A stretch of DNA of 64,000 nucleotides from Eledone cirrhosa (Eukaryota). The stretch spans positions 139,996,001 to 140,060,000 of the forward strand of contig OZ024742.1 of NCBI GenBank assembly GCA_964016885.1, written 5' to 3'. The position numbers were made by a program, and so were the translations under genes. The first letter of the stretch is position 1; each line of letters opens with the position of its first letter. This document shows positions 55,609 through 60,379 of this stretch, in pieces. Below the pieces are notes generated by a model. The model was not told where the DNA came from. It searched no databases and saw nothing but the letters and a program-made list of their open reading frames with translations.

Positions 55609-58600
55609 AATTGGAATAAATGCTCTGAAATAGCGATATATATGTGAATATAGACATAGAATATTCGAAAATATTCTGTATGTTTATAATAAACATTTTG
55701 AAGACCTAATCGCTATAGAATAGAATACGTCACGTATTACAATTAGATTCTCGATAAAAGCAAGGGAAGTAATCTACGCGTTTCATTCTTGTTAGAAATC
55801 ATCAGGACTACATATCCAGTGCTTTTATCGAGAATGACACAGCTAGAGACTTATAGAATACTTAGCTGTGTACAGGAACTGGTTTGAAAGAGCGGTTGCC
55901 GGTCCGGCAGAAATTAGAAATTGGAATAAATGCTCTGAAATAGCGATATATATGTGAATATAGACATAGAATATTCGAAAATATTCTGTATGTTTATAAT
56001 AAACATTTTGAAGACCTAATCGCTATAGAATAGAATACGTCACGTATTACAATTAGATTCTCGATAAAAGCAAGGGAAGTAATCTACGCGTTTCATTCTT
56101 GTTAGAAATCATCAGGACTACATATCCAGTGCTTTTATCGAGAATGACACAGCTAGAGACTTATAGAATACTTAGCTGTGTACAGGAACTGGTTTGAAAG
56201 AGCGGTTGCCGGTCCGGCAGAAATTAGAAATTGGAATAAATGCTCTGAAATAGCGATATATATGTGAATATAGACATAGAATATTCGAAAATATTCTGTA
56301 TGTTTATAATAAACATTTTGAAGACCTAATCGCTATAGAATAGAATACGTCACGTATTACAATTAGATTCTCGATAAAAGCAAGGGAAGTAATCTACGCG
56401 TTTCATTCTTGTTAGAAATCATCAGGACTACATATCCAGTGCTTTTATCGAGAATGACACAGCTAGAGACTTATAGAATACTTAGCTGTGTACAGGAACT
56501 GGTTTGAAAGAGCGGTTGCCGGTCCGGCAGAAATTAGAAATTGGAATAAATGCTCTGAAATAGCGATATATATGTGAATATAGACATAGAATATTCGAAA
56601 ATATTCTGTATGTTTATAATAAACATTTTGAAGCCCTAATCGCTATAGAATAGAATACGTCACGTATTACAATTAGATTCTCGATAAAAGCAAGGGAAGT
56701 AATCTACGCGTTTCATTCTTGTTAGAAATCATCAGGACTACATATCCAGTGCTTTTATCGAGAATGACACAGCTAGAGACTTATAGAATACTTAGCTGTG
56801 TACAGGAACTGGTTTGAAAGAGCGGTTGCCGGTCCGGCAGAAATTAGAAATTGGAATAAATGCTCTGAAATAGCGATATATATGTGAATATAGACATAGA
56901 ATATTCGAAAATATTCTGTATGTTTATAATAAACATTTTGAAGACCTAATCGCTATAGAATAGAATACGTCACGTATTACAATTAGATTCTCGATAAAAG
57001 CAAGGGAAGTAATCTACGCGTTTCATTCTTGTTAGAAATCATCAGGACTACATATCCAGTGCTTTTATCGAGAATGACACAGCTAGAGACTTATAGAATA
57101 CTTAGCTGTGTACAGGAACTGGTTTGAAAGAGCGGTTGCCGGTCCGGCAGAAATTAGAAATTGGAATAAATGCTCTGAAATAGCGATATATATGTGAATA
57201 TAGACATAGAATATTCGAAAATATTCTGTATGTTTATAATAAACATTTTGAAGACCTAATCGCTATAGAATAGAATACGTCACGTATTACAATTAGATTC
57301 TCGATAAAAGCAAGGGAAGTAATCTACGCGTTTCATTCTTGTTAGAAATCATCAGGACTACATATCCAGTGCTTTTATCGAGAATGACACAGCTAGAGAC
57401 TTATAGAATACTTAGCTGTGTACAGGAACTGGTTTGAAAGAGCGGTTGCCGGTCCGGCAGAAATTAGAAATTGGAATAAATGCTCTGAAATAGCGATATA
57501 TATGTGAATATAGACATAGAATATTCGAAAATATTCTGTATGTTTATAATAAACATTTTGAAGACCTAATCGCTATAGAATAGAATACGTCACGTATTAC
57601 AATTAGATTCTCGATAAAAGCAAGGGAAGTAATCTACGCGTTTCATTCTTGTTAGAAATCATCAGGACTACATATCCAGTGCTTTTATCGAGAATGACAC
57701 AGCTAGAGACTTATAGAATACTTAGCTGTGTACAGGAACTGGTTTGAAAGAGCGGTTGCCGGTCCGGCAGAAATTAGAAATTGGAATAAATGCTCTGAAA
57801 TAGCGATATATATGTGAATATAGACATAGAATATTCGAAAATATTCTGTATGTTTATAATAAACATTTTGAAGACCTAATCGCTATAGAATAGAATACGT
57901 CACGTATTACAATTAGATTCTCGATAAAAGCAAGGGAAGTAATCTACGCGTTTCATTCTTGTTAGAAATCATCAGGACTACATATCCAGTGCTTTTATCG
58001 AGAATGACACAGCTAGAGACTTATAGAATACTTAGCTGTGTACAGGAACTGGTTTGAAAGAGCGGTTGCCGGTCCGGCAGAAATTAGAAATTGGAATAAA
58101 TGCTCTGAAATAGCGATATATATGTGAATATAGACATAGAATATTCGAAAATATTCTGTATGTTTATAATAAACATTTTGAAGACCTAATCGCTATAGAA
58201 TAGAATACGTCACGTATTACAATTAGATTCTCGATAAAAGCAAGGGAAGTAATCTACGCGTTTCATTCTTGTTAGAAATCATCAGGACTACATATCCAGT
58301 GCTTTTATCGAGAATGACACAGCTAGAGACTTATAGAATACTTAGCTGTGTACAGGAACTGGTTTGAAAGAGCGGTTGCCGGTCCGGCAGAAATTAGAAA
58401 TTGGAATAAATGCTCTGAAATAGCGATATATATGTGAATATAGACATAGAATATTCGAAAATATTCTGTATGTTTATAATAAACATTTTGAAGACCTAAT
58501 CGCTATAGAATAGAATACGTCACGTATTACAATTAGATTCTCGATAAAAGCAAGGGAAGTAATCTACGCGTTTCATTCTTGTTAGAAATCATCAGTTCCT

Positions 58601-60379
58601 GTACACAGCTAAGTATTCTATAAGTCTCTAGCTGTGTCATTCTCGATAAAAGCACTGGATATGTAGTCCTGATGATTTCTAACAAGAATGAAACGCGTAG
58701 ATTACTTCCCTTGCTTTTATCGAGAATCTAATTGTAATACGTGACGTATTCTATTCTATAGCGATTAGGTCTTCAAAATGTTTATTATAAACATACAGAA
58801 TATTTTCGAATATTCTATGTCTATATTCACATATATATCGCTATTTCAGAGCATTTATTCCAATTTCTAATTTCTGCCGGACCGGCAACCGCTCTTTCAA
58901 ACCAGTTCCTGTACACAGCTAAGTATTCTATAAGTCTCTAGCTGTGTCATTCTCGATAAAAGCACTGGATATGTAGTCCTGATGATTTCTAACAAGAATG
59001 AAACGCGTAGATTACTTCCCTTGCTTTTATCGAGAATCTAATTGTAATACGTGACGTATTCTATTCTATAGCGATTAGGTCTTCAAAATGTTTATTATAA
59101 ACATACAGAATATTTTCGAATATTCTATGTCTATATTCACATATATATCGCTATTTCAGAGCATTTATTCCAATTTCTAATTTCTGCCGGACCGGCAACC
59201 GCTCTTTCAAACCAGTTCCTGTACACAGCTAAGTATTCTATAAGTCTCTAGCTGTGTCATTCTCGATAAAAGCACTGGATATGTAGTCCTGATGATTTCT
59301 AACAAGAATGAAACGCGTAGATTACTTCCCTTGCTTTTATCGAGAATCTAATTGTAATACGTGACGTATTCTATTCTATAGCGATTAGGTCTTCAAAATG
59401 TTTATTATAAACATACAGAATATTTTCGAATATTCTATGTCTATATTCACATATATATCGCTATTTCAGAGCATTTATTCCAATTTCTAATTTCTGCCGG
59501 ACCGGCAACCGCTCTTTCAAACCAGTTCCTGTACACAGCTAAGTATTCTATAAGTCTCTAGCTGTGTCATTCTCGATAAAAGCACTGGATATGTAGTCCT
59601 GATGATTTCTAACAAGAATGAAACGCGTAGATTACTTCCCTTGCTTTTATCGAGAATCTAATTGTAATACGTGACGTATTCTATTCTATAGCGATTAGGT
59701 CTTCAAAATGTTTATTATAAACATACAGAATATTTTCGAATATTCTATGTCTATATTCACATATATATCGCTATTTCAGAGCATTTATTCCAATTTCTAA
59801 TTTCTGCCGGACCGGCAACCGCTCTTTCAAACCAGTTCCTGTACACAGCTAAGTATTCTATAAGTCTCTAGCTGTGTCATTCTCGATAAAAGCACTGGAT
59901 ATGTAGTCCTGATGATTTCTAACAAGAATGAAACGCGTAGATTACTTCCCTTGCTTTTATCGAGAATCTAATTGTAATACGTGACGTATTCTATTCTATA
60001 GCGATTAGGTCTTCAAAATGTTTATTATAAACATACAGAATATTTTCGAATATTCTATGTCTATATTCACATATATATCGCTATTTCAGAGCATTTATTC
60101 CAATTTCTAATTTCTGCCGGACCGGCAACCGCTCTTTCAAACCAGTTCCTGTACACAGCTAAGTATTCTATAAGTCTCTAGCTGTGTCATTCTCGATAAA
60201 AGCACTGGATATGTAGTCCTGATGATTTCTAACAAGAATGAAACGCGTAGATTACTTCCCTTGCTTTTATCGAGAATCTAATTGTAATACGTGACGTATT
60301 CTATTCTATAGCGATTAGGTCTTCAAAATGTTTATTATAAACATACAGAATATTTTCGAATATTCTATGTCTATATTCA
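55609..60379. mobile_element. 310-bp hammerhead-bearing tandem array with internal inversion (non-LTR retrozyme-like)
   Basis: Units start at 55611+310n (ten starts, the last cut at 58595). Reverse-complement units start at 58593+310n and run to 60379. Only one substitution was noticed (A>C at 56634). No ORF of 60 aa or more lies within the array; the one starting at 60328 runs into the flanking TA tract. Confidence 0.93.
58639..58727 (+). ncRNA. Type I hammerhead ribozyme of the 310-bp unit (first + copy; 6 complete on +, 9 complete on -)
   Basis: attctcgataaaagca..gga..gtagtc-CTGATGA-t.ttct(aaca)agaa.t-GAAA-cgcg-TA|gattac..tcc..tgcttttatcgagaat; 6-bp stem I plus a perfect 16-bp distal extension; predicted cleavage after 58699. 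Confidence 0.9.

What the first reader, a model, noticed from the sequence alone, without database searches (positions are those of the whole stretch)
58401..58903. Retrozyme array has the Penelope-type divergent inversion, joined by a CAG microhomology at the ribozyme core
Seen in sequence: the left arm has ribozymes on - and the right arm on +. The switch is at CAG 58593-58595, shared by ...catCAG (edge of the CUGAUGA box) and CAGttcct. The same geometry (element on - at left, inverted 3' copy on + at right, TA flanks) occurs in both Naiad-like elements (junctions 48747 and 63514) and in the fold-back at 52217. Inference: the array was integrated by a Penelope RT/GIY-YIG protein with a template or strand switch, which ties the non-coding ribozyme unit to an autonomous helper. 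Read-through transcription would also give about 1.8 kb of near-perfect dsRNA.
Basis: partly seen in the sequence, partly recalled or inferred. Interest (0 to 1): 0.8.

Follow-up and report, generated by a model that had tools for sequence, protein, structure and literature searches.

The report
Retrozyme arrays inserted Penelope-style, both ends
A 310-base ribozyme-carrying repeat sits in this animal genome as back-to-back arrays in which one arm always stops about 35 bases further along the repeat than the other, the mark of Penelope-like jumping genes, whose enzyme likely copies the repeat's RNA from both cut DNA strands at once.

Summary
The inversion is real: 9.6 units on minus (55609-58595) and 5.8 on plus (58593-60388), overlapping at CAG. 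It is the family rule. All 73 independent two-arm insertions with both ends visible are tail-out, and each has one arm ending at unit position 237-246 (S) and the other at 272-279 (L). Both arms carry the same haplotype in 41 of 42 arrays. Junction positions are scattered and independent, and fall in the ribozyme less often than expected (7 of 120 ends, 16.6 expected), so 'at the ribozyme core' is chance. Best reading: two-site twin priming by a PLE RT/GIY-YIG, then microhomology joining of the two cDNAs. The window's 'Naiad-like' ORFs are Hydra-type. Their tails are 76-92 nt, whereas two Neptune-type families have 35-37 nt, so the helper is more likely Neptune-type; it was not identified. The window's own junction was not seen on reads, and expression and self-cleavage are untested. 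The retrozyme-PLE link is already proposed in print; I found no paper giving this insertion-level evidence or the strict S/L rule.

The parts
55609..58595 (-). Left arm, 9.6 units of the 310-nt retrozyme; 3' end at unit position 273 (long, L end); 5' end at position 77
58593..60388 (+). Right arm, 5.8 units; 5' end at unit position 1; 3' end at position 237 (short, S end), with 60381-60388 matching both unit and TA target
58593..58595 (.). CAG overlap at the head-to-head junction
   Evidence: the same junction recurs once in an unrelated insertion, G000:C1511
55609..55644 (-). One-sided tail (unit positions 238-273) present at the left end only
58663..58705 (+). Type I hammerhead motif of the first right-arm unit (stem I GUAGUC/GAUUAC, CUGAUGA, GAAA, minimal stem III); predicted cut after GUA at 58699; repeated every 310 nt
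   Evidence: sequence; Rfam Hammerhead_HH9 19.2 bits, E 0.033, below gathering score 52; nothing at gathering level
58559..58595 (-). Junction-proximal hammerhead of the left arm, lacking the 5' strand of stem I
54244..55608 (.). Left (TA)n target tract, interrupted by CAT
60380..60586 (.). Right (TA)n target tract
44609..51028 (.). [quoted passage not shown]
52181..52590 (.). Comparison element 2: tail-out stump of a second Neptune-type family, junction 52412/52413, L end left, S end right, tail 35 nt
60587..64000 (.). Comparison element 3: Hydra-type element, junction 63514, hammerhead near 60693-60770, L end left; S end lies about 217 nt past the window; tail 76 nt

Best explanation
This is a non-coding hammerhead (retrozyme) array whose two arms end at two fixed sites 35 nt apart, and it was likely inserted in one event by a Penelope-like RT/GIY-YIG protein acting in trans by two-site twin priming. 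Shown: tail-out geometry, one S and one L end per insertion, TA targets, one haplotype in both arms, scattered junctions with short overlaps. Inferred: the protein (probably a dimer, probably Neptune-type) binds a conserved module of the RNA and nicks both strands of (TA)n with a stagger of roughly 10-25 nt. One 3' end primes at unit position 237-246, where AUAUAUAU can pair with the target, and the other at 272-279. Both cDNAs run through several units of the same template (multimer or circle, needing strand displacement), stop at random, and are joined head to head by host microhomology-mediated repair. The ribozyme plays no part in the junction.
For: 73 of 73 independent two-arm insertions with both ends visible are tail-out with one S and one L end: 8 picked by ribozyme core, 53 by L end, 11 by S end after dropping one assembly duplicate, plus the window. 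No S/S, L/L or convergent case. Genome-wide S and L end patterns are about 1:1 (1,186 S; 654 L on the forward strand alone). Same rule in two Neptune-type families and an older sister family. Arms share the haplotype in 41 of 42 arrays, against 13.8% for arms of different arrays. In L124, L144 and L101 variants lie in register counted from the two primed ends, not from the junction. Overlap of 2 nt or more in 25 of 37 insertion-free junctions against 18% by chance, p 6e-11. With each array's own unit as yardstick: 36 of 60 overlap, 8 blunt, 16 with extra bases, several copied from the unit. The two 5' ends are independent (8 of 60 within 20 nt, 7.9 expected). Duplicated target sequence with non-TA letters is visible in L034, L102, L118, L119. 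PMC11167929: a purified PLE protein cuts and extends both strands, starts at two adjacent internal sites that bound the tail, and is predicted dimeric.
Against: No helper found: no PLE 3' region among 1.28 Mb of fetched loci resembles the unit above shuffle level, and a module-plus-start-codon pattern gave only 6 ordinary ends. In vitro the anole protein showed no strand preference for start site and no target homology, unlike the strict S/L rule and TA pairing here. Three arrays do not fit in-register copying: L093, L102, L035/36; 42 variants are private to one arm. 13 whole insertions scored as one arm only (one has an 11-nt second arm). Most loci came from the first 153 Mb of contig C1 and were picked by an end pattern that demands TA on one side. 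The window's own junction was not seen in any listed contig piece (351 pieces not shown).
Confidence: 0.72

Rival explanations
1. A PLE protein does the job, but the second arm comes from a template or strand switch or from self-priming fold-back (first reader; model in PMC3846280), or is copied from the first arm's sense-strand DNA and not from RNA.
For: Junction overlaps; the join through the 16-nt stem around the ribozyme (positions 47/120) recurs in L034, L077, L119. Copying from the first arm's DNA would also give a shared haplotype and in-register variants.
Against: No fold-back signature: distance between the two 5' ends is uniform. A running switch gives no reason for the second arm to end at its own fixed site flush with the target in every case.
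Confidence: 0.17
2. A LINE (RTE or CR1 type) inserts the RNA by L1-style twin priming, which also gives tail-out arms and microhomology (L1 model recalled, not read here).
For: Same gross geometry; RTE-like LINEs sit in the same TA tract (53028-54242).
Against: Both ends are fixed internal sites 35 nt apart, there is no poly(A) or simple-repeat 3' tail, and 5' ends do not cluster at the second priming site (22 of 120, 19 expected). The window's RTE-like copy at 52670-54242 has no inverted arm.
Confidence: 0.04
3. Arrays are satellites grown locally by unequal crossover from a solo terminal repeat (model discussed in bioRxiv 10.64898/2026.07.22.740005), with later DNA-level inversion.
For: L035/36 shows markers repeated 7 units apart, which fits some local duplication.
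Against: A later inversion cannot place different fixed ends on the two arms in 73 of 73 cases, with short arms of under one unit obeying the same rule.
Confidence: 0.04
4. The inversion is a fold-back read or assembly artefact.
For: The window junction itself was not shown on reads.
Against: Junctions are asymmetric and nearly all different; ends differ by the tail; Logan contigs of run X3 hold six other tail-out joints at depth 5-10, with 21-28 nt on the short side; the same CAG join occurs in a second insertion with other flanks and swapped S/L sides.
Confidence: 0.02

Closest known systems
Metazoan non-LTR retrozymes (PMC7229834, passages read; bioRxiv 10.64898/2026.07.22.740005, parts 1-3 of 5 read)
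   Same: Non-coding tandem unit of about 300 nt with a type I hammerhead in every unit; PLEs proposed as helpers.
   Different: Neither text describes inverted arms, a tail or fixed ends: 'inverted' 0 times in the first and once, in a reference title, in the second; 'tail' 0 times in the second. The preprint's link rests on co-occurrence and pLTR homology; here the link is the insertion signature and no pLTR homologue was found. Its supplements were not seen.
EN+ Penelope-like element insertions with inverted pLTR and 30-40 nt tail (PMC8557442 passages and Hydra section; PMC3846280 passages)
   Same: Inverted 5'-truncated copy, tail often at one end only, (TA)n bias, occasional target duplications.
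   Different: No ORF; both arms are multi-unit arrays. The tail, described as optional, is here an obligate one-S-one-L rule in all two-arm cases examined.
Poseidon of Anolis in vitro (PMC11167929, parts 1-2 of 4 read)
   Same: Two adjacent internal RT start sites bounding the tail; both strands cut and extended; hammerhead dispensable for insertion.
   Different: There, no strand difference in start site and no homology to the target. Here each insertion uses each site once, and the S site can pair with (TA)n.
Non-autonomous Chlamys elements such as MRC1 (PMC8557442 passage)
   Same: Non-coding PLE parasites forming multicopy head-to-tail insertions.
   Different: They resemble their autonomous partner at the 3' end; no partner was found here, and this unit carries a hammerhead.

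Membership tests
Non-LTR retrozyme | Tandem non-coding unit of a few hundred nt | tested here: met
   310 nt, 9.6 + 5.8 units, no ORF of 100 aa or more inside the arms
Non-LTR retrozyme | Type I hammerhead in each unit | tested here: met
   Core boxes and stems by eye; Rfam clan hit only at E 0.033; none of the fixed variants listed for 42 arrays hits an invariant core position
Non-LTR retrozyme | Self-cleavage and circular RNA | not testable with these tools
   Monomer folds well (z -3.97); no activity assay possible
PLE-type insertion | Inverted 5'-truncated copy at the 5' end | tested here: met
   73 of 73 two-arm cases tail-out
PLE-type insertion | 30-40 nt tail at one end | tested here: met
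   Unit 237 to 272; commonest ends 39 and 26 of 82 (S) and 53 of 88 (L)
PLE-type insertion | (TA)n target bias | tested here: met
   7 of 8 core-selected two-arm arrays have TA on both sides; L034 is AT-rich only
Autonomous PLE | RT plus GIY-YIG ORF | tested here: not met
   Array is non-coding
Derivative of a known PLE pLTR | Sequence homology to an autonomous element's terminus | tested here: inconclusive
   None in 1.28 Mb of loci or by pattern; the genome could not be searched whole by DNA
Naiad (window elements 1 and 3) | N-terminal GIY-YIG; no canonical hammerhead | tested here: not met
   Endonuclease is C-terminal to RT; hammerhead motifs present
Hydra clade (ORFs of window elements 1 and 3) | C-terminal EN, DKT, RWK-like motif, CxCX5C linker, no CCHH, short ORF | tested here: met
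   745-aa intact family copy with RWR, DKT, CNCRDRSKC (criteria); element 3 shows the linker and EN motifs only; no tree built
Neptune clade (termini of elements 1 and 2) | DKG, CX2-5CxxC linker, C-terminal GIY-YIG with CCHH | tested here: met
   L183 protein; second family 49-60% identical to it; by motif, no tree built

The most novel reading that the evidence does not exclude
Every complete Penelope-like insertion is one concerted, asymmetric double-priming event in which the two halves of the RT/GIY-YIG complex each use a different start site on a single RNA, so the 'optional tail' and the 'inverted pLTR' are one phenomenon. Animal retrozymes hijack it with a small portable start-site module, and so land as ready-made multi-kilobase palindromes, each a potential self-silencing dsRNA source.
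Probability: 0.5. Interest if true: 0.8.

Novelty: new variant of a known kind. Interest (0 to 1): 0.63.

Why it matters
How animal retrozymes move and how PLEs make their inverted and tailed ends are both stated as open in the papers read. A young family with over a thousand near-identical insertions gives base-level evidence on both: it ties a retrozyme to PLE machinery by footprint, favours double priming over self-priming, and indicates that arrays arrive whole. It defines a module of about 100 nt that can be tested directly in the published in vitro assay, and predicts the helper's class from tail length.

Tried and rejected
DNA search of the genome with the unit gave nothing because common words are skipped; patterns were used. 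Rfam at gathering level: no hit. Ribozyme-core preference of junctions: rejected. Fold-back junctions: rejected. Helper search by BLAST, local alignment and pattern: negative. Covariation in the start-site module: 10 predicted pairs, none with a compensatory change, so the structure is unproven. My constrained hammerhead fold was mis-specified and gave a meaningless energy. A crude classifier called sister locus L204 S/S; direct reading shows S/L. Runs: no RNA holder listed; two raw Hi-C runs laid no reads. Rows dropped before the count of 73: four insertions cut by the fetched stretch or by N (L033, L081, L107, L112), one duplicate across an assembly gap (L136), BLAST arms under 95% identity, and 13 single-arm insertions counted apart. 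Paper searches for prior description found none for retrozymes; subscription journals and preprint supplements are not covered.

Full report
Observation. The array spans 55609-60388: 9.6 units of 310 nt on minus and 5.8 on plus. The arms share exactly CAG at 58593-58595, and the left arm's 5' end is the first C of CUGAUGA. The arms differ from one reference unit at one internal position (56634) and at 60380 next to the target, and can pair over 1,796 nt. Each unit holds a type I hammerhead with a minimal stem III. Rfam gives only a weak clan hit (E 0.033) and nothing at gathering level.

The family. The genome (3.0 Gb) holds 4,584 exact matches to a 32-nt ribozyme core. I fetched the first 10 arrays picked by core, 60 stretches picked by one end pattern and 20 picked by the other. 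Mapping showed that 3' ends fall at two sites, unit position 237-246 (S) and 272-279 (L). Of insertions with two arms and both ends visible, 8 of 8 core-picked, 53 of 53 L-picked, 12 of 12 S-picked (one a duplicate) and the window are tail-out with one S and one L end: 73 independent cases, no exception. Thirteen whole insertions scored as single-armed and four were cut. End patterns give 1,186 S matches and 654 forward-strand L matches (the reverse count is inflated by double listing), so roughly 1,200 or more insertions. An older sister family (5,263 motif matches; unit 314-320 nt; hammerhead-like motif with a UUGAUAA core) keeps the start-site module and shows S/L pairs in about nine distinct loci of 30 rows.

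The junction. 5' ends are spread over the unit (KS p 0.38). Only 7 of 120 fall in the ribozyme against 16.6 expected, and the two ends of a junction are unrelated. Overlaps are enriched (25 of 37 insertion-free junctions with 2 nt or more, 18% by chance). With each array's own unit as yardstick, 36 of 60 overlap, 8 are blunt and 16 have extra bases, several copied from the unit, which resembles polymerase-theta joining (that attribution is from recall). So CAG is a typical microhomology and its place at the core is chance. The same join recurs once, in G000:C1511, with other flanks and S and L sides swapped.

One template. In 41 of 42 arrays with both arms over two units, the arms share their fixed variants; arms of different arrays match in 13.8% of pairs, with 18 haplotypes. 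In L124 both arms carry one haplotype in the two units next to the primed ends and another beyond, although the arms are 937 and 5,473 nt long; L144 and L101 show the same register. This argues for both arms being read from the same terminal unit of one template and against conversion across the palindrome. L093, L102 and L035/36 do not fit, and 42 variants are private to one arm. Whether the usual template is a circle or a linear multimer is open; L124 points to a multimer at least once.

The neighbours. Element 1 is a chimera: a Hydra-type ORF and 3' region up to about 45285, then the 3' end of a Neptune-type family, which supplies both termini. The fold-back at 52181-52590 is the stump of a second Neptune-type family; 17 of 30 loci of it show an inverted arm ending at S opposite the L end, and two more were cut. 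Tail lengths: Neptune-type about 37 and 35 nt, Hydra-type 92 and 76 nt, retrozyme 35 nt. This favours a Neptune-type helper, but no autonomous element with homology to the unit was found.

Artefact check. The window's junction was not seen in the listed pieces of four runs. Run X3 holds six other tail-out joints in contigs at depth 5-10, short side 21-28 nt. Together with asymmetric ends and duplicated target sequence in L034, L102, L118 and L119, an artefact is unlikely.

Comparison. PMC8557442 (passages, Hydra section) and PMC3846280 (passages) describe the inverted copy and a 30-40 nt tail often at one end; the latter explains head-to-head inversions by self-priming. PMC11167929 (parts 1-2 of 4) shows both strands cut and extended and two internal start sites bounding the tail. 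PMC7229834 (passages) names PLEs as candidate helpers, and bioRxiv 10.64898/2026.07.22.740005 (parts 1-3 of 5) argues for PLE origin from co-occurrence and pLTR homology. Six searches found no description of inverted, tailed retrozyme arrays.

Verdict. Real, family-wide and mechanistically informative. The element is a retrozyme by sequence, works like a non-autonomous PLE, and most likely inserts by two-site twin priming (0.72 for the whole mechanism; PLE involvement about 0.9). New variant of a known kind; interest 0.63.

Noticed in passing
window 44609-51028: Hydra-type ORF carried between Neptune-type termini in both arms: a chimeric RNA apparently mobilised through the other family's start sites.
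   Followed up: partly
window 41080-60586 and L041: At least six insertions are nested in one long (TA)n tract with strand-biased CAT interruptions (126 CATTA against 4 TAATG in the window; 24 against 0 in the other loci counted). The S end of element 3 also reads ...TACATTA.
   Followed up: no
runs X1, X2, X4, X5, X11: Runs labelled with five different organism codes each hold a single unbranched 340-nt contig that closes into the 310-nt unit, 99.7-100% identical over the part laid, depth 10-410. Could be low-level contamination, a circular RNA or spread between species; 16 organism codes hold the stretch.
   Followed up: no
L034, L077, L119: Recurrent junction through the 16-nt stem that encloses the ribozyme (unit 47/120), which flips the ribozyme domain almost seamlessly.
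   Followed up: partly
L035/L036 (G000:C1:43586909-43593787): Two variants repeat seven units apart in a 19-unit arm: local duplication or a multimeric circle.
   Followed up: partly
window 50840-50890 and sister family L215: Hammerhead-like motifs with UUGA-N-AA in place of CUGA-N-GA (a U-A for C-G swap) in the Neptune-type terminus and in the sister retrozyme.
   Followed up: no
G000:C1:97461500-97476483: L and S end patterns 15 kb apart suggest one very long two-arm array; only the first 7.5 kb was read (L107).
   Followed up: partly
L045:2860-2990 and L151: A further hammerhead-bearing terminus (CUGAUGA...GAAAC) of another family, also ending in TA.
   Followed up: no
window 36702-38794 and 39510-40343: Decayed Neptune-like element interrupted by an RTE-associated repeat.
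   Followed up: no
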